Source of the DNA: Escherichia coli
GTDB taxonomy: Bacteria; Pseudomonadota; Gammaproteobacteria; Enterobacterales; Enterobacteriaceae
DNA length: 64,000 nucleotides
Assembly: GCF_046105845.1 (NCBI RefSeq)
Contig: NZ_CP151004.1
Reading direction: 5' to 3' (one strand)
Shown here: positions 218-39,134 of the stretch, piece after piece
How positions within the stretch are numbered: the first letter of the stretch is position 1
Layout: each line of letters starts with the position of its first letter
Notes under the pieces: generated by a model
Databases searched by the model: none
The model's input: only the letters and a program-made list of their open reading frames with translations
Told to the model about the DNA's origin: nothing
Translations under genes and position numbers: made by a program

Positions 218-3892
<3,675 letters not shown>

Positions 3893-7105: not shown

Positions 7106-7869
7106 GAGAATGCCTCCCGTTGCTCAAATACGCGGCTTAAAACATATTCGCGCATGGCGATGAATTGTGGATCGGACTTGATGCTGCGGCTCGGTTCCCC
7201 GGCAACAAAGCGGCGGGCGAAGTTGAGCGGCAGCCGCTCCAGCACGCGGCCTGGGCCGGGTGAAAGCAGAACCAGTTCAGTCGCCATAAACACCGCTTCT
7301 TCTATATCGTGGGTAATCAACAGCACCTGCTTGCCCGTCTCCTGCCAGAGTTTCAGCAGCAGGGTTTGCATCTGGTCGCGGGTGAAGGCGTCCAGCGCAC
7401 CAAACGGTTCATCGAGTAATAACAGCTGGGGATTTGCCGCCAGCGCGCGGGCAATCCCCACCCGCTGACGTTGACCGCCGGAAAGCTGCCAGATGTAGCG
7501 TTTTTCTGCCCCTTCCAGCCCCACTTTTTTCAGCATCTGGTGCGCGATTTCCAGTCGCTGCATTTTCTCAACACCTGCCAGTTGCAGGCCGAACGCCACG
7601 TTGTCCCGTACATTGCGCCACGGTAGCAGCCCTTCATTCTGAAAAACTACGCCACGCTCTGCTCCCGGCCCCTCAATGCGTTTGCCCGCCAGTTGAATAC
7701 TGCCGTGCTGATAAGGCACAAAACCGGCAATCAGATTCAGCAGGGTGGTTTTACCGCAGCCGGACGGCCCCAGCACCACCAGTAGCTCACCGCTTTCCAG
7801 CGTCAGGTTGATATCTTCCAGTGCCGGTTTGCCGCCATAATCGGCGTAAAGATGAGAGATTTGCAGCAT
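7102..7869 (-). CDS. tauB: Taurine ABC transporter ATP-binding protein
   Basis: 255 aa; Walker [10 protein letters not shown], signature LSGGQRQR. Confidence 0.94.
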
Positions 7870-12707: not shown

Positions 12708-12787
12708 CTTCCCTGCCGATTAGCCCCACCCCCTTTCCTCTTTGTTTTCCGACCACATTCACCGGATAAATTTTATTCTCCAGTGTT

Positions 12788-12840
12788 ATATACTATAGGG
12801 GGGTATGTATTGACATATAGAATACCCCCCTATAGTATAT
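12788..12840 (+). promoter_or_regulatory. frmRAB promoter-operator: two 19-bp inverted arms with G6/C6 tracts (CsoR/RcnR-family FrmR site type) flanking a TTGACA -35
   Basis: ATATACTATAGGGGGGTAT (12788-12806) and ATACCCCCCTATAGTATAT (12822-12840) are exact reverse complements; TTGACA at 12810-12815; frmR ATG at 12865. Confidence 0.7.
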
Positions 12841-12864
12841 TGCATGCAGATGATGAGGTGCGAA

Positions 12865-13140
12865 ATGCCCAGTACTCCGGAAGAGAAGAAAAAGGTCCTT
12901 ACTCGAGTTCGTCGTATTCGGGGGCAAATTGATGCTCTGGAACGGTCGCTGGAGGGTGATGCCGAATGCCGTGCCATACTCCAACAGATCGCTGCCGTTC
13001 GGGGCGCGGCTAACGGGCTGATGGCAGAAGTGCTTGAAAGCCATATCCGGGAAACGTTTGACCGAAATGACTGCTACAGCCGCGAAGTCAGCCAATCCGT
13101 TGACGACACTATTGAACTGGTTCGTGCCTATCTTAAATAG
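12865..13140 (+). CDS. frmR: Formaldehyde-responsive repressor FrmR (CsoR/RcnR family)
   Basis: 91 aa from ATG at 12865 ([31 protein letters not shown]...) preceded by GAGG; track ORF starts 21 nt earlier. Confidence 0.93.
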
Positions 13141-13144
13141 CTGA

Positions 13145-14284
<1,140 letters not shown>

Positions 14285-14299
14285 TTTCCCGCAGGTTTA

Positions 14300-14352
14300 C
14301 CCGTCCAGTTCAGACGGGGTTCTTAATACTCTCCCCGGGCAGCCGTCCGGGG
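14300..14352 (+). other. Two tandem GC-rich stem-loops in the frmA-frmB intergenic spacer
   Basis: CCCGTC-N7-GACGGG (14300-14318) and CCCCGG-N8-CCGGGG (14333-14352). Confidence 0.3.
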
Positions 14353-14375
14353 GATTAACCGTGAGATAATGACTG

Positions 14376-15209
14376 ATGGAACTCATTGAAAAACATGCCA
14401 GCTTTGGCGGCTGGCAAAATGTGTATCGGCATTATTCCCCATCACTGAAATGTGAAATGAATGTCGGCGTCTATCTCCCACCAAAAGCCGCAAGTGAAAA
14501 ATTGCCGGTGTTGTACTGGCTTTCAGGGCTGACTTGCAACGAGCAGAATTTCATTACTAAATCGGGGATGCAACGTTACGCGGCTGAGCACAACATTATT
14601 GTTGTTGCGCCGGACACCAGTCCGCGAGGCAGTCATGTCGCAGATGCTGACCGTTACGATCTCGGGCAAGGTGCCGGGTTTTACCTGAACGCAACGCAAG
14701 CGCCGTGGAATGAACATTACAAAATGTATGACTATATCCGCAACGAGCTGCCGGATTTAGTGATGCAACATTTTCCGGCAACGGCCAGAAAGTCTATCTC
14801 AGGTCATTCTATGGGCGGGCTGGGCGCACTGGTGCTGGCGTTACGTAACCCAGATGAATATGTCAGCGTCTCGGCGTTTTCGCCCATTGTCTCCCCATCG
14901 CAAGTACCGTGGGGACAGCAAGCCTTTGCCGCATATCTTGGTGAAAAAAAAGATGCCTGGTTGGATTACGACCCGGTGAGTCTTATTTCACAAGGTCAAC
15001 GCGTTGCGGAAATCATGGTTGATCAGGGATTGAGTGATGATTTTTACGCAGAACAGCTGCGGACTCCAAATCTTGAAAAGATCTGCCAGGAGATGAATAT
15101 CAAGACGTTAATCCGTTATCACGAGGGTTATGATCACAGCTATTATTTTGTCTCCAGTTTTATTGGCGAGCATATTGCCTACCACGCCAATAAACTGAAT
15201 ATGCGTTAA
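14376..15209 (+). CDS. frmB: S-formylglutathione hydrolase
   Basis: 277-aa esterase with GHSMGG serine motif. Confidence 0.94.
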   Translation: MELIEKHASFGGWQNVYRHYSPSLKCEMNVGVYLPPKAASEKLPVLYWLSGLTCNEQNFITKSGMQRYAAEHNIIVVAPDTSPRGSHVADADRYDLGQGAGFYLNATQAPWNEHYKMYDYIRNELPDLVMQHFPATARKSISGHSMGGLGALVLALRNPDEYVSVSAFSPIVSPSQVPWGQQAFAAYLGEKKDAWLDYDPVSLISQGQRVAEIMVDQGLSDDFYAEQLRTPNLEKICQEMNIKTLIRYHEGYDHSYYFVSSFIGEHIAYHANKLNMR

Positions 15210-15224
15210 TAATAGTGCACGACT

Positions 15225-15311
15225 GCCGGATGCGGCGTAAACGCCTTATCCGGTCTACGGGTGGCGCGGGAATTTGTAGGCCTGATAAGACGCGTCAGCG
15301 TCGCATCAGGC
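15225..15311. repeat. REP/BIME element (two inverted REP palindromes)
   Basis: GCCGGATGCGGCGTAAACGCCTTATCCGGTCTAC followed by GTAGGCCTGATAAGACGCGTCAGCGTCGCATCAGGC, between convergent frmB and yaiL. Confidence 0.65.
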
Positions 15312-15334
15312 ATCTGCGCACGACTTATCTATGT

Positions 15335-25900: not shown

Positions 25901-29013
<3,113 letters not shown>

Positions 29014-31082: not shown

Positions 31083-32237
31083 TCATGCCTCTTTGACCCA
31101 CAGCTGCGGAAAACGTGCTGGTGCAAAACGCAGGGTTATGATCATCAGCCCAACGACGCACAGCGCATGAAACGCCCAGTCCATCAAGTAATTGCCACTG
31201 ATACTACGCAGCACGCCAGAAAACCACGGGGCAAGCCCGGCGATGATAAAACCGATCCCCTGCATAAACGCCACCAGTTTGCCAGCAATAGCGGGTTGCG
31301 CAGAGTGATCGAGCGCCAGCAGCAAACAGAGCGGAAATGCGCCGCCCAGACCTAACCCACACACCATTGCCCACAATACCGGCAATTGCAGCGGCAGCCA
31401 GATAAAGCCGCAGAAACCCACCAGTTGTAACGCCAGCGCCAGCATCAAAAGTTTGCGCCGATCCTGATGGCGAGCCATAGCAGGCATCAGCATAGCTCCT
31501 GCGGCTTGCCCAAGCGTCATCAATGCCAGCAAGGAACCGCTGTACTGCGCGCTGGCACCAATCTCAATATAGAAAGCGGGTAACCAGGCAATCAGGCTGG
31601 CGTAGCCGCCGTTAATCAGACCGAAGTAAACACCCAGCGTCCACGCGCGGGGAGTAAATACCACGCGAACCGGAGTGGTTGTTGTCTTGTGAGAAGAGGC
31701 GACCTCGCGGGCGCTTTGCCACCACCAGGCAAAGAGCGCAACAACGGCAGGCACCGCCCACCAGGCGAGAGTCTGGAACCAAATCTCGCTGTGTTGAACT
31801 AACCAGGGCGTCAGGGCGGCACCAAGTCCACCGCCGCCCATCAGAGCCGCGGACCACAGCCCCATCACCAGTGGCGTACGGTGCTTAAACCGCCGCTTAA
31901 TTACCGAAGGCATCACTGCCTGAATGATGCCGATCCCCACTCCACCAAGCAGTGCGCTGCTAAGCAGCAGCGCACTTTGGGGGTAAAGCTCACGCATCAA
32001 TGCACCGACGGCAATCAGTAACAAACTGATGGCGACGCTGCGACGTTCGCTGACATGCTGATGAAGCCAGCTTCCGGCCAGCGCCAGCCCGCCCATGGTG
32101 ACCACCGGCAGAGCGGTCAACAGGGCTGCCACGCTAAAGCTCATTCCACTCGCCTGACGCAATTGCGGTAGCAGTGGTCCGACGGAGGTGAGCAGTGGTC
32201 GCATATTAAGACCAATCAGCACCAGAACCAGCAGCAT
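31083..32237 (-). CDS. cynX: Cyanate MFS transporter
   Basis: 384 aa from ATG 32237 (MLLVLVLIGLNMRPLLTSVGPLLPQLRQ...); an alternative ATG at 32264 gives 393 aa. Confidence 0.9.
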   Translation of the reverse strand: MLLVLVLIGLNMRPLLTSVGPLLPQLRQASGMSFSVAALLTALPVVTMGGLALAGSWLHQHVSERRSVAISLLLIAVGALMRELYPQSALLLSSALLGGVGIGIIQAVMPSVIKRRFKHRTPLVMGLWSAALMGGGGLGAALTPWLVQHSEIWFQTLAWWAVPAVVALFAWWWQSAREVASSHKTTTTPVRVVFTPRAWTLGVYFGLINGGYASLIAWLPAFYIEIGASAQYSGSLLALMTLGQAAGAMLMPAMARHQDRRKLLMLALALQLVGFCGFIWLPLQLPVLWAMVCGLGLGGAFPLCLLLALDHSAQPAIAGKLVAFMQGIGFIIAGLAPWFSGVLRSISGNYLMDWAFHALCVVGLMIITLRFAPARFPQLWVKEA

Positions 32238-37171: not shown

Positions 37172-37242
37172 AATAAGACGCGGTAAGCGTCGCATCAGGC
37201 ATCGGCGCATGGTGTCGGATGCGCCAGGCGACGCATCCGACA
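37172..37242. repeat. REP-like element plus 11-bp-stem palindrome downstream of prpE
   Basis: ATAAGACGCGGTAAGCGTCGCATCAGGCATCGGCGCATGG, then TGTCGGATGCG-N8-CGCATCCGACA (37213-37242); the hairpin is a near-copy of the one at 31013-31042. Confidence 0.5.
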
Positions 37243-37247
37243 ATAAC

Positions 37248-39134
37248 CTACTCTTCCATCGCCTGGCGGATCTGATCCAACGACGCAGGATCATCAATGG
37301 TCGTCAGATCCCCAGGATCGCGTCCTTCACAAATCGCCTGGATCGTGCGGCGCAGCATTTTTCCGGATCGCGTTTTCGGCAATTGCGAGACAAACCAGAC
37401 GTGCGCCGGGCGACCAAAGTTGCCAATCTGGCTGTCCACCAGCGCCATAATCGCCTTCTCTTGCGAATGCGCCACCTCGCGGTCTTCCAGACTGTCGCTC
37501 TCTTTCGGAATGACAAACGCCACCGCCACCTGCCCTTTCAGCGCATCTTTCACCCCAACCACCGCCACTTCGGCAACGCCCGGATGACTGGAGATACTCT
37601 CTTCAATCTCGCGCGTCCCCAGCCGATGCCCGGCAACGTTAATCACATCGTCAGTGCGCCCGAGAATAAAGTGATAACCGTCAGCATCGCGGATACCCCA
37701 GTCAAAAGTGGCGTACACCGGACGGGAAAACAGCGACCAGTACGTCTTCACAAAGCGGTCGTCGTCGCCCCAGATGGTCTGAATACAGCCCGGCGGCAGC
37801 GGCCCTTCTACCACCAGCATCCCTTTCTCGTTGACGCCACACGGTTCGCCGGTGACTTCATTAAGCAACTGCACGTTATAGCCATACATCGGCACGCCGG
37901 GGCTTCCCAGACGCGTCGGCCTGTCGTCCAGACCGCGAGCAATCGCCATAATCGGCCAGCCGGATTCGGTCTGCCAGTAGTTGTCGATGACCGGCACATC
38001 CAGCGTATTGCTCACCCAACTGGCGGTCGGCTCGTCCAGCGGTTCTCCAGCCAGATAGAGCACTTCCAGCGACGAGAGATCGTGTTTGCGAATTTCAGCG
38101 GTAGGGAATTTTTTCAGCACGCGTATGGCGGTCGGCGCTGAGAACATGCGGCTAACCTGATATTTCTCGACGATTTTCCACCACACGCCGCAGTCCGGCC
38201 AGGTCGGTAATCCTTCGTAAACGATAGTCGCCATCCCCGCCAGCAGCGGCGCGTAGACGATATACGAATGCCCCACCACCCAGCCGATATCCGAAGCACA
38301 AAAGAACACACCGCCCGCTTTGCCGCCAAAAATGGTGTCCATCGAGGTCGCCAGCGCCACCGCATATCCGCCGACGTCACGCTGCACGCCTTTAGGTTTG
38401 CCGGTCGTGCCGGAAGTGTAGAGAATGCAGGAGGTTTCGTTGGATTCCAGCCACGCCACTGGCACCCGCGCGCCGATGTGTTGATGGCGCAACGACGCGA
38501 AATCGACATCCCGCCCGCTGACGCGCGCCATTTTCGCCAGCCCGCGATCCACCAGTAAAACGTGGCGCGGCTGATGCTGCGCCTGACTTATCGCATCGTC
38601 GAGTAATTTTTTATAGGGAATGATTTTGCCACCGCGCGCTCCGGCATCAGCCGAGACAATCAGCACCGGTTTAGCGTCATCAATTCGCGCCGCCACGCTG
38701 TGCGAGGCAAATCCCCCAAACACCACCGAATGAATAGCGCCAATGCGCGCGCAGGCCAGCAGGGTAATATGCGCTTCGGCAATCATCGGCATATACACCA
38801 GCACCCGATCGCCACGCTGCACGCCCAATGAACGCAACATTGAGGCCACCGCGTTCACTTCGTCATGCAGCTGACGAAAGGTAAAGGTGCGCTCTTCTTC
38901 TGTTTCCGAAGAGACGGCAATCAGCGCCAGCGCCTCTGGCTGTTTCTCCAGCCAGCGGTCGATAGCGTTGTGGCACAAGTTGGTTCGGCCTTCACAAAAC
39001 CAACGGGCAAACGGCGGATTGCTGTGATCAAGCGTTTGCGTAAAGGGCGTCTGCCAGTCAATACGCCGGGCCTGCTCGGCCCAGAACTTCTCCGGTTCGT
39101 TAATCGAACGCTGATAAAATTCGCTAAAAGACAT
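37248..39134 (-). CDS. prpE: Propionate-CoA ligase (propionyl-CoA synthetase)
   Basis: 628-aa acyl-CoA synthetase, begins MSFSEFYQRSINEPEKFWAEQARRIDW. Confidence 0.95.
   Translation of the reverse strand: MSFSEFYQRSINEPEKFWAEQARRIDWQTPFTQTLDHSNPPFARWFCEGRTNLCHNAIDRWLEKQPEALALIAVSSETEEERTFTFRQLHDEVNAVASMLRSLGVQRGDRVLVYMPMIAEAHITLLACARIGAIHSVVFGGFASHSVAARIDDAKPVLIVSADAGARGGKIIPYKKLLDDAISQAQHQPRHVLLVDRGLAKMARVSGRDVDFASLRHQHIGARVPVAWLESNETSCILYTSGTTGKPKGVQRDVGGYAVALATSMDTIFGGKAGGVFFCASDIGWVVGHSYIVYAPLLAGMATIVYEGLPTWPDCGVWWKIVEKYQVSRMFSAPTAIRVLKKFPTAEIRKHDLSSLEVLYLAGEPLDEPTASWVSNTLDVPVIDNYWQTESGWPIMAIARGLDDRPTRLGSPGVPMYGYNVQLLNEVTGEPCGVNEKGMLVVEGPLPPGCIQTIWGDDDRFVKTYWSLFSRPVYATFDWGIRDADGYHFILGRTDDVINVAGHRLGTREIEESISSHPGVAEVAVVGVKDALKGQVAVAFVIPKESDSLEDREVAHSQEKAIMALVDSQIGNFGRPAHVWFVSQLPKTRSGKMLRRTIQAICEGRDPGDLTTIDDPASLDQIRQAMEE

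What the first reader, a model, noticed from the sequence alone, without database searches (positions are those of the whole stretch)
14300..14352. Two tandem GC-rich hairpins between frmA and frmB
Two stable stem-loops fill the 91-nt spacer inside the frm operon. They may set differential frmA/frmB expression or mark an mRNA processing site.
Basis: seen in the sequence. Interest (0 to 1): 0.2.

Follow-up and report, generated by a model that had tools for sequence, protein, structure and literature searches.

The report
Two RNA hairpins between frmA and frmB
Two GC-rich stem-loops really do sit between frmA and frmB in the E. coli formaldehyde-detoxification operon, and the second is conserved as a structure even in plasmid-borne copies of the operon, but they look like ordinary RNA stability or processing hairpins and nothing yet shows what they do.

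Summary
The window holds the E. coli frmRAB operon, with a 91-nt frmA-frmB spacer. Hairpin 1 lies at 14300-14318 (6 bp, -10.2 kcal/mol). Hairpin 2 lies at 14333-14352 (8 bp, extendable to 14330-14354, -17.7 kcal/mol). Together they fold better than all 200 shuffles (z -3.26) and rank in the top 0.5% of 63-nt windows here. The element is single-copy, present in 5416 of 5426 complete E. coli genomes, is not a REP, and matches no Rfam family.

New finding: hairpin 2 plus the 22 nt down to the frmB start codon is homologous to the element upstream of fghA in plasmid-borne frmR-frmA-VOC-fghA operons. Its stem keeps pairing through changes on both sides (G-C to U-A), while its loop varies freely. 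Hairpin 1 is confined to Escherichia, and its variants all preserve pairing. Unrelated hairpins recur in frmA-fghA spacers of Proteus, Photorhabdus and Stenotrophomonas.

Most likely they are intercistronic RNA stability or processing structures, with hairpin 1 possibly a weak, leaky terminator, that uncouple FrmA and FrmB levels. Neither can be a strong terminator. Published Term-seq, from uninduced cells, lists no 3' end in the spacer, and frmB is co-induced with frmA. This is a new member of a known kind and of low interest.

The parts
14282..14284 (+). frmA stop codon (TGA); hairpin 1 begins 16 nt downstream
   Evidence: ORF list and E. coli annotation
14300..14318 (+). Hairpin 1: CCCGTC / 7-nt loop CAGTTCA / GACGGG. 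Most other E. coli strains have a 7-bp version, CCCCGTC...GACGGGG. Found only in Escherichia.
   Evidence: Fold energy -10.2 kcal/mol. Flagged as terminator-like. All variation across 15 Escherichia sequences keeps pairing: U-A/U.G, C-G/U.G, G-C/G.U, and matched single-base indels in K-12. No detectable homology to the plasmid clusters.
14319..14332 (+). AU-rich single-stranded linker GTTCTTAATACTCT. It is a weak U-rich tail for hairpin 1 and a candidate RNase E entry site (GG|UU fits the start of the RN|WUU motif).
   Evidence: Read directly from the sequence. 5 T in the 8-nt window scored by the terminator scan. The first T is G in 2 of the 15 Escherichia sequences. RNase E motif as described in PMC5927463. 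The cleavage itself is inferred, not shown.
14330..14354 (+). Hairpin 2: core stem CCCCGGGC (14333-14340) / loop AGCC / GTCCGGGG (14345-14352), plus one or two outer pairs. Conserved structure shared with plasmid-borne frmR-frmA-VOC-fghA operons.
   Evidence: Fold energy -17.7 kcal/mol. 16 distinct versions; 142 of 144 core cells are paired; pair 4 is G-C, U-A or U.G; pair 2 is G.U, A-U or G-C; loops vary in sequence and length. On the model-based alignment 98.8% of cells pair against 93.1 +/- 1.4 in shuffles, and 67% or less with slid partners.
14355..14378 (+). frmB translation initiation region: ATTAACCGTGAGATAATGACTG followed by ATG. The likely Shine-Dalgarno is GAGA at 14363-14366 and the start codon is at 14376. 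It is conserved together with hairpin 2.
   Evidence: 19 of 22 nt are identical to plasmid-type locus L010. The covariance model of hairpin 2 plus this region hits only the Escherichia and plasmid-type loci.
15225..15312 (+). Two inverted REP elements (a BIME) downstream of frmB, where the operon transcript actually ends.
   Evidence: Sub-threshold matches to Rfam naRNA4, a REP-derived family, and the sequence itself. The K-12 Term-seq 3' end at 377325(-) lies just past the homologous REP.

Best explanation
The two stem-loops form in the frmRAB polycistronic mRNA and act as intercistronic determinants of RNA stability or processing.

Hairpin 1 lies 16 nt after the frmA stop codon. Hairpin 2 lies 22 nt before the frmB start codon. 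Both are GC-rich barriers to 3'-to-5' exonucleases. The 14-nt AU-rich linker between them is the obvious entry point for an endonuclease such as RNase E.

A cut there, or a low level of termination at hairpin 1, would leave a frmR-frmA RNA capped by hairpin 1. It would also leave a frmB segment that begins close to hairpin 2. The two halves of the operon would then decay independently, so FrmA and FrmB levels need not be equal. E. coli has a second S-formylglutathione hydrolase, YeiG.

What is shown: the hairpins exist, they are single-copy, they are nearly universal in E. coli, and pairing is conserved (strongly for hairpin 2). What is inferred: that RNA ends form here and that they change the frmA:frmB ratio.
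For: The hairpins are more stable than chance.

Hairpin 2 is conserved as a structure. Escherichia chromosomes and plasmid-type frmR-frmA-VOC-fghA clusters share it although FrmB is only about 80% identical. It shows changes on both sides of a pair and freely varying loops.

All nine substitution types seen in the stems across E. coli and its close relatives keep a standard pair. Transversions appear only in unpaired positions. The only three broken cells are in E. albertii. In E. albertii's upstream copy of hairpin 1, the U-A pair (U.G in K-12) has become C-G.

Unrelated hairpins occupy the same operon position in Proteus (4 pairs with compensatory changes), Photorhabdus and Stenotrophomonas. 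33 of 43 spacers of 30-130 nt fold with z below -2.

The layout of hairpin, AU-rich linker, hairpin matches the papBA-type and protective-structure models documented for E. coli operons (PMC5927463). YeiG provides a back-up hydrolase (PMC5146963).
Against: No RNA 3' end is listed in the K-12 spacer (378369-378461, minus strand) in the Term-seq tables of PMC7815308. Those tables do list the operon's end at 377325(-). Nothing for frm appears in the supplements of PMC12207403 or PMC6131387.

frmRAB is in table S2 (operons used) of PMC5927463 but not in S3, S6 or S7. All of these data sets come from uninduced cells.

16 of the 79 frmA-fghA loci manage with spacers under 30 nt and no hairpin, so a hairpin is not required for the pathway.

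A cut at GG|UU would leave about 14 unpaired nt in front of hairpin 2, which is a poor 5' protective arrangement.

Hairpin 1's conservation is shallow. It is Escherichia-only, and only one paralogous copy shows a change on both sides of a pair.
Confidence: 0.45

Rival explanations
1. Hairpin 1 is a leaky intrinsic terminator (attenuator). A fraction of RNA polymerases stop after GACGGGG-UUCUUAAU, so less frmB than frmA mRNA is made. Hairpin 2 is incidental or merely protects that 3' end.
For: The terminator scan flags 14300-14318 with the tail GTTCTTAATA. It sits 16 nt after a stop codon, a typical place for a terminator. The Proteus and Photorhabdus spacers carry clearly terminator-like hairpins with long U runs at the same operon position.
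Against: The tail is poor: G precedes the first U, and there are only 4-5 U in 8 nt, interrupted by C and A. The first U is G in 2 of the 15 Escherichia sequences. Terminator-like sites in this 3-kb region are not more frequent than in shuffles (5 found against 2.9 +/- 1.9). No Term-seq 3' end is listed there. frmB is co-derepressed with frmA in frmR mutants (PMC13029678).
Confidence: 0.2
2. Hairpin 2 belongs to the frmB (fghA) translation initiation region. It would be a structural module that fixes the 5' edge of the ribosome-binding region, acting as an insulator or standby platform. It would also hide the SD-like GGGGG and the two-codon GUG-AGA-UAA mini-ORF, so setting the frmB translation rate.
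For: Hairpin 2 and the 22 nt down to the ATG are conserved as one block and keep the same spacing in Escherichia and in plasmid operons, whereas the sequence 5' of the hairpin is not conserved.
Against: Common descent alone explains the constant spacing. Complementing either arm in silico hardly changes the predicted accessibility of the SD/AUG region in E. coli (0.55 against 0.51-0.56) and changes it only modestly in L010 (0.49 against 0.37-0.43). The mini-ORF start codon is not conserved (AUG, GUG, CUG or ACG).
Confidence: 0.2
3. The hairpins, or at least hairpin 1, have no function. They would be GC-rich palindromes left by rearrangements in the spacer, for example at the junction where the plasmid-type clusters carry a VOC gene, and tolerated because they do no harm.
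For: Hairpin 1 occurs only in Escherichia and has no homologue in the plasmid clusters. The spacer is a hot spot for rearrangement: a REP-containing insertion with a duplicated hairpin in E. albertii, and an IS421 insertion just after hairpin 1 in one E. coli strain. Many lineages have no spacer hairpin. The whole-spacer fold is only marginally better than shuffles.
Against: This cannot explain hairpin 2's compensatory changes and its loop-versus-stem contrast. Nor does it explain why every stem substitution sampled within E. coli and its close relatives preserves pairing, or why the hairpins persist in 5416 of 5426 genomes.
Confidence: 0.12
4. A DNA-level element: either a second FrmR (CsoR/RcnR-type) operator or a REP-like dispersed repeat.
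For: Hairpin 2 has C4 and G4 tracts and an upstream ATAC, faintly like the ATAC-GC tract-GTAT FrmR sites (PMC5146963).
Against: The C and G tracts are 12 nt apart, and the flanks are not inverted repeats. The real operator is the large palindrome at 12791-12842. The inner-stem changes keep pairing rather than sequence. The element is single-copy in the window and in each genome. The REP-like Rfam matches lie only at 15215-15312.
Confidence: 0.03

Closest known systems
papBA-type intercistronic processing site and the protective RNA structures of differentially decaying E. coli operons (Dar and Sorek 2018, PMC5927463)
   Same: Stable stem-loops lie inside a polycistronic mRNA next to an unstructured AU-rich stretch with a partial RN|WUU motif. 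Pairing is evolutionarily conserved. The expected effect is unequal stability of neighbouring cistrons.
   Different: No RNA 5' or 3' ends, and no half-life difference, have been shown for frmRAB. The operon is not in that study's list of regulated operons. Most structures in that study lie inside coding regions, whereas these are intergenic.
Intrinsic (Rho-independent) terminators or attenuators inside operons
   Same: Hairpin 1 is a GC-rich 6-7 bp stem with a 7-nt loop, 16 nt after a stop codon, followed by a partly U-rich tail.
   Different: The U tract is weak and not fully conserved. Hairpin 2 has no U tract at all. No 3' end is mapped there. Read-through to frmB is evidently the rule.
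REP/BIME elements used as intercistronic mRNA stabilisers (the malE-malF case, from established knowledge)
   Same: GC-rich extragenic hairpins between genes of one operon that can block 3' exonucleases.
   Different: These hairpins are not REPs. They are single-copy, lack the REP consensus and give no naRNA4/REP match. True REPs lie downstream of frmB at 15225-15312.
Spacer hairpins of frmA-fghA (adhC-fghA) operons in Proteus, Photorhabdus, Stenotrophomonas and Mangrovibacter
   Same: Same operon position and same general form. Pairing is kept through compensatory changes within each genus.
   Different: There is no sequence relationship to the Escherichia hairpins: covariance model R1 finds none of them. 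The Proteus and Photorhabdus versions have proper U runs and look like real terminators.

Membership tests
Intrinsic terminator | GC-rich stem-loop | tested here: met
   Hairpin 1 has 6-7 bp with 5 G-C pairs. Hairpin 2 has 8-10 bp.
Intrinsic terminator | Run of U immediately 3' of the stem | tested here: inconclusive
   Hairpin 1 has the tail GUUCUUAAU, which passes the lenient scan with 5 T in 8 but is interrupted, and begins GUC in 2 of the 15 Escherichia sequences. Hairpin 2 has the tail GAUUAACC, so the feature is not met there.
Intrinsic terminator | RNA 3' end mapped at the tail | tested here: not met
   No 3' end is listed in K-12 378369-378461(-) in the Term-seq tables of PMC7815308. 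Caveat: the operon was not induced in those experiments.
REP/BIME dispersed repeats | Many copies per genome sharing the REP consensus | tested here: not met
   One place per genome. One match each in the window with up to 3 mismatches. The CCCCG...CGGGG pattern is no more frequent than chance. naRNA4-like matches occur only at 15215-15312.
Intercistronic protective or processing RNA structure | Stable stem-loop within a co-transcribed intergenic spacer | tested here: met
   frmA and frmB are co-induced as one operon (PMC13029678; PMC5146963).
Intercistronic protective or processing RNA structure | Pairing conserved in evolution | tested here: met
   Hairpin 2. 98.8% of cells are paired, 2 pairs show changes on both sides, and 0 of 500 shuffles reach the observed percentage paired or covariation score. 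Hairpin 1: only one-sided, pair-preserving changes, plus a C-G pair in the E. albertii copy.
Intercistronic protective or processing RNA structure | RNA ends at the structure and unequal decay or abundance of the flanking cistrons | not testable with these tools
   This needs end mapping and rifampicin chase in induced cells. The available published tables are negative or silent.
Any Rfam family | Match to a curated covariance model | tested here: not met
   No match in the spacer even at E up to 10. No match at gathering score anywhere in the window.
FrmR (CsoR/RcnR-type) operator | [quoted passage not shown] | tested here: not met
   In hairpin 2 the C4 and G4 tracts are 12 nt apart and the flanks are not inverted repeats. 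The genuine tandem sites are at 12791-12842.

The most novel reading that the evidence does not exclude
Hairpin 2 together with the frmB leader is a dedicated cis-regulatory RNA module. It would travel with fghA, both on the Escherichia chromosome and on hundreds of conjugative plasmids that carry formaldehyde-resistance operons. It would control FrmB synthesis through a specific partner (an sRNA, an RNA-binding protein or an RNase), rather than acting as a generic barrier.
Probability: 0.1. Interest if true: 0.45.

Novelty: new member of a known kind. Interest (0 to 1): 0.22.

Why it matters
If functional, the hairpins would explain how one promoter can give different amounts of the dehydrogenase (FrmA) and the hydrolase (FrmB) in a stress operon. 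That operon is now clinically relevant, because formaldehyde resistance arises under methenamine prophylaxis (PMC13029678).

The same hairpin 2 rides on plasmid-borne formaldehyde-resistance operons, found in 510 PLSDB plasmids. It is also a handy natural part for people who engineer frmRAB in synthetic methylotrophy.

Conceptually it adds nothing new. Intercistronic hairpins that tune operon stoichiometry are well known.

Tried and rejected
- **Rfam.** Scans of the region at E up to 10 and of the whole window at gathering score found nothing in the spacer.
- **Dispersed repeat (REP or MITE).** Rejected. The element is single-copy in each of 5416 genomes and in the window.
- **Outer helix enclosing both hairpins, which would partly hide the Shine-Dalgarno (MFE).** Rejected. 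K-12, the E1V33 strain and others break it, and their best folds differ.
- **Promoter for frmB in the spacer.** None was found by the scan.
- **Antisense-strand terminator role for the two hairpins.** The reverse-complement hairpins have no U tails.
- **Homology of hairpin 1 to the plasmid clusters.** BLAST finds only the hairpin 2 and ribosome-binding part.
- **MAFFT/RNAalifold on Escherichia plus plasmid sequences.** The 5' arm was mis-registered by one column because loop lengths differ. This was replaced by my own registration and a covariance-model alignment.
- **Published 3'-end data.** PMC7815308 is negative for the spacer. PMC12207403 and PMC6131387 have no frm entries. PMC6061677, PMC9023263, PMC12259150 and PMC9122600 have no supplements held as text.
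- **Expression papers.** They give no usable frmA versus frmB absolute levels.
- **RBS-insulator model.** The in-silico test was inconclusive to negative.

Full report
**Context.** The window carries the E. coli frmRAB formaldehyde-detoxification operon on the + strand. frmR is at 12844-13140, frmA at 13175-14284 and frmB (annotated fghA in RefSeq) at 14376-15209. The frmA-frmB spacer, 14285-14375, is 91 nt here and 93 nt in K-12 MG1655 (NC_000913.3 378369-378461, minus strand).

**Checking the observation.**
- Hairpin 1 pairs 14300-14305 with 14313-14318 around a 7-nt loop. Its energy is -10.2 kcal/mol (z -2.70).
- Hairpin 2 pairs 14333-14340 with 14345-14352 around the loop AGCC, and can be extended to 14330-14354. 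Its energy is -17.7 kcal/mol (z -2.35).
- The 63 nt holding both fold at -27.9 kcal/mol, better than all 200 dinucleotide shuffles (z -3.26).
- That energy lies in the top 0.5% of all 63-nt windows on both strands of the 64 kb.
- The whole spacer is less striking (z -1.69).
- The outer helix that the minimum-free-energy fold draws around both hairpins is not kept in other strains.

The hairpins are real and better than chance. They are not extreme: a few dozen places in the window fold as well.

**What it is not.** No Rfam family matches the spacer, even at E up to 10, and none reaches gathering score anywhere in the window. It is not a REP or any other dispersed repeat. The 65-nt region occurs once per genome in 5416 of 5426 complete E. 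coli genomes. Each hairpin occurs once in the window with up to 3 mismatches allowed. The CCCCG...CGGGG pattern is at chance frequency. True REPs (sub-threshold naRNA4 matches) lie downstream of frmB at 15225-15312. No promoter-like site lies in the spacer.

**Variation within Escherichia.** I aligned fifteen spacers: this window, K-12, eleven further E. coli-labelled sequences (ten sampled complete genomes and the draft locus L004), Escherichia sp. E1V33 and the downstream part of the E. albertii spacer.
- Of the 16 stem pairs, 8 vary on one side only, and always to another standard pair: C-G to U.G, G-C to G.U, U-A to U.G, and G.U to G-C or A-U.
- No pair shows a change on both sides.
- The only three broken cells are in E. 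albertii.
- K-12 adds one C to the 5' arm of hairpin 1 and one G to the 3' arm, which lengthens the stem by a pair.
- Transversions occur only in unpaired columns.
- In E. albertii the spacer is 194 nt. It holds an upstream copy of hairpin 1 in which the U-A pair (U.G in K-12) has become C-G. A REP-like insertion follows, then a second copy of hairpin 1, then hairpin 2.

This points to selection on pairing. The divergence is small, and the shuffle control cannot separate selection from relatedness.

**The main new result: hairpin 2 is older than Escherichia.** A scan of one genome per species with FrmB returned 80 loci. In 78 of them frmA lies upstream of the FrmB match.
- The ten closest loci fall into two sets. 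Three are Escherichia. Seven (L005-L011) come from Aeromonas, Enterobacter, Morganella, Edwardsiella, Serratia and Providencia, one of them on a plasmid. In these seven FrmB is about 80% identical and FrmA about 94% identical to the query.
- In those seven loci a roughly 132-aa VOC (glyoxalase-family) gene sits between frmA and fghA.
- The same cluster, frmR-frmA-VOC-fghA, is present in 510 PLSDB plasmids, mostly conjugative. In the one locus examined (L093) it lies next to Tn3-family transposase and recombinase genes.
- The last roughly 45 nt before fghA in these clusters are homologous to hairpin 2 plus the frmB ribosome-binding region. The plasmid type reads TTCCCCTGAC-loop-GTCAGGGGAATTAACCATGAGATAA. 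E. coli reads TCCCCGGGC-AGCC-GTCCGGGGGATTAACCGTGAGATAA.
- With the stems put in register, there are 16 distinct versions. 142 of the 144 core cells are paired, and the two exceptions are both in E. albertii.
- Pair 4 is G-C in Escherichia, U-A in the plasmid type and U.G in Yersinia ruckeri. Pair 2 is G.U, A-U or G-C. One further outer pair switches between U-A and C-G.
- The loop changes freely in sequence and length: AGCC, AACC, TCCCT, TCACT, TTCCG, TTTCG and others.
- A covariance model built from Escherichia sequences alone recovers all the plasmid-type loci (E from 1e-4 to 1e-10). It finds no match with E below 0.1 in the other roughly 70 frmA-fghA loci.
- On its alignment, 98.8% of cells pair, against 93.1 +/- 1.4 in shuffles (0 of 500 reach it). 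Two pairs carry changes on both sides. Sliding the partners gives at most 67% paired.
- Caveats: that alignment is fitted to the structure, and the G-C to U-A switch is probably a single event on the branch between the two clades.

Hairpin 1 has no counterpart in the plasmid clusters. It lies between frmA and hairpin 2, the interval that holds the VOC gene in those clusters.

**Recurrence elsewhere.** Other lineages carry unrelated hairpins at the same operon position.
- Proteus has a stem with 4 pairs showing compensatory changes, followed by UCUUUGCUUUU.
- Photorhabdus has AAAAACCG...CGGUUUUU plus a second hairpin.
- Stenotrophomonas has a GC-rich stem. Mangrovibacter, Providencia and Vitreoscilla also have hairpins.
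- Of 43 spacers of 30-130 nt, 33 fold with z below -2 against mononucleotide shuffles.
- Sixteen loci have spacers under 30 nt with only a Shine-Dalgarno sequence. A hairpin is therefore common but not required.

**Mechanism.** Strong termination can be excluded.
- frmB is derepressed together with frmA in frmR mutants (PMC13029678).
- Term-seq in K-12 places a strong 3' end at 377325(-), just past the REPs downstream of frmB. It lists none in the spacer (PMC7815308).
- Hairpin 2 has no U tail (GAUUAACC).
- Hairpin 1 has a weak one (GUUCUUAAU). The scan accepts it, but it is interrupted, and its first U is G in 2 of 15 sequences.
- Terminator-like sites are not enriched in the region (5 found against 2.9 +/- 1.9).

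The layout is a stable hairpin, 14 nt of AU-rich single strand that begins GG|UU, and then a second stable hairpin 22 nt before the start codon. This is the layout of intercistronic processing and protection sites such as papBA and the structures catalogued by Dar and Sorek (PMC5927463).

I therefore favour segmental mRNA stability or processing, possibly with slight termination at hairpin 1. The result would be to uncouple FrmA from FrmB, which is sensible given the second hydrolase YeiG (PMC5146963). My confidence is 0.45.

That RNA ends form here is inferred, not shown. The published negatives come from uninduced cells. frmRAB was among the operons analysed by Dar and Sorek but is not in their tables of regulated operons.

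**Rival explanations.**
- A leaky attenuator at hairpin 1 (confidence 0.2).
- A translation-initiation module for frmB (0.2). The conserved hairpin-to-AUG block fits this. However, disrupting the hairpin in silico barely changes ribosome-binding-site accessibility, and the GUG-AGA-UAA mini-ORF start is not conserved.
- Neutral palindromes (0.12). This is plausible only for hairpin 1.
- A DNA-level FrmR site or REP (0.03). The genuine FrmR operator is the large palindrome at 12791-12842.

**Verdict.** The element is an unannotated, ordinary kind of intercistronic hairpin pair. The one modestly interesting point is that hairpin 2 is a conserved structure that travels with fghA on plasmid-borne formaldehyde-resistance operons. 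None of the frm papers I searched mentions it. I rate it a new member of a known kind, with interest 0.22.

Noticed in passing
window 12784-12846 (core 12791-12842): A large AT-rich inverted repeat with G6 and C6 tracts (ATACTATAGGGGGGTAT ... ATACCCCCCTATAGTAT) surrounds a TTGACA -35 box just upstream of frmR. It is the second most stable 63-nt fold in the window (-34.1 kcal/mol with only 22 G+C). It matches the published tandem type I FrmR operator of Pfrm.
   Followed up: partly
window 15225-15312 (and about 15331): Two inverted REP elements (a BIME) lie between the convergent genes frmB and yaiL, with sub-threshold naRNA4 matches. The strong K-12 Term-seq 3' end at 377325(-) maps just past the homologous REP, so this is where the frmRAB transcript ends. 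K-12 has a longer frmB-yaiL spacer (223 nt against 125 nt here).
   Followed up: partly
window 14396-14416, minus strand: A terminator-like hairpin (TGCCAGC/GCTGGCA, 7 bp) followed by TGTTTTTC lies on the strand antisense to the first codons of frmB. It could stop antisense transcripts coming from yaiL. Published Term-seq lists antisense 3' ends inside frmB (K-12 377694/377696 and 378012, + strand). The T run is absent from plasmid-type fghA.
   Followed up: no
L092 (E. coli Br_167_kylling, NZ_CP182378.1), equivalent to window ~14326: An IS421 (IS4-like) element is inserted directly after hairpin 1, with GGTTCTTAAT duplicated on both sides. It separates frmA from hairpin 2 and frmB by about 1.3 kb.
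   Followed up: partly
L003 (E. albertii NBRC 107761) 2807-3000: The frmA-frmB spacer is 194 nt. It holds an upstream hairpin-1-like stem (CCCCGCCC...GGGCGGGG), a roughly 100-nt insertion containing a REP-like sequence (GCCTGATGTGCTACACCTGTCAGGCCTAC), a second copy of hairpin 1, and then a weakened hairpin 2 with a 2x2 internal loop.
   Followed up: partly
L005-L011 and L093-L098; 510 PLSDB plasmids: A mobile frmR-frmA-VOC-fghA operon, with a roughly 132-aa glyoxalase/VOC gene inserted between frmA and fghA. It is widespread on conjugative plasmids of Klebsiella, Enterobacter, Escherichia, Citrobacter, Salmonella and others. In L093 it lies next to Tn3-family transposase and recombinase genes. 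The role of the VOC protein in formaldehyde resistance is not addressed here.
   Followed up: partly
window 14361-14369: A two-codon mini-ORF, GTG-AGA-TAA, overlaps the frmB Shine-Dalgarno. Its start is ATG in the plasmid type, E. albertii and Escherichia sp. E1V33, CTG in K-12, and ACG in L004 and L008. In the L006 group the ATG is in frame with fghA and has no stop, which would give a possible 5-codon N-terminal extension.
   Followed up: partly
window 26110-26172 (+), 7418-7480 (-), 31931-31993 (-), 37202-37264 (-): These are the most stable 63-nt folds in the window (-39.5 to -33.6 kcal/mol), all stronger than the frm spacer. No Rfam family matches them at gathering score. I did not examine them.
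   Followed up: no
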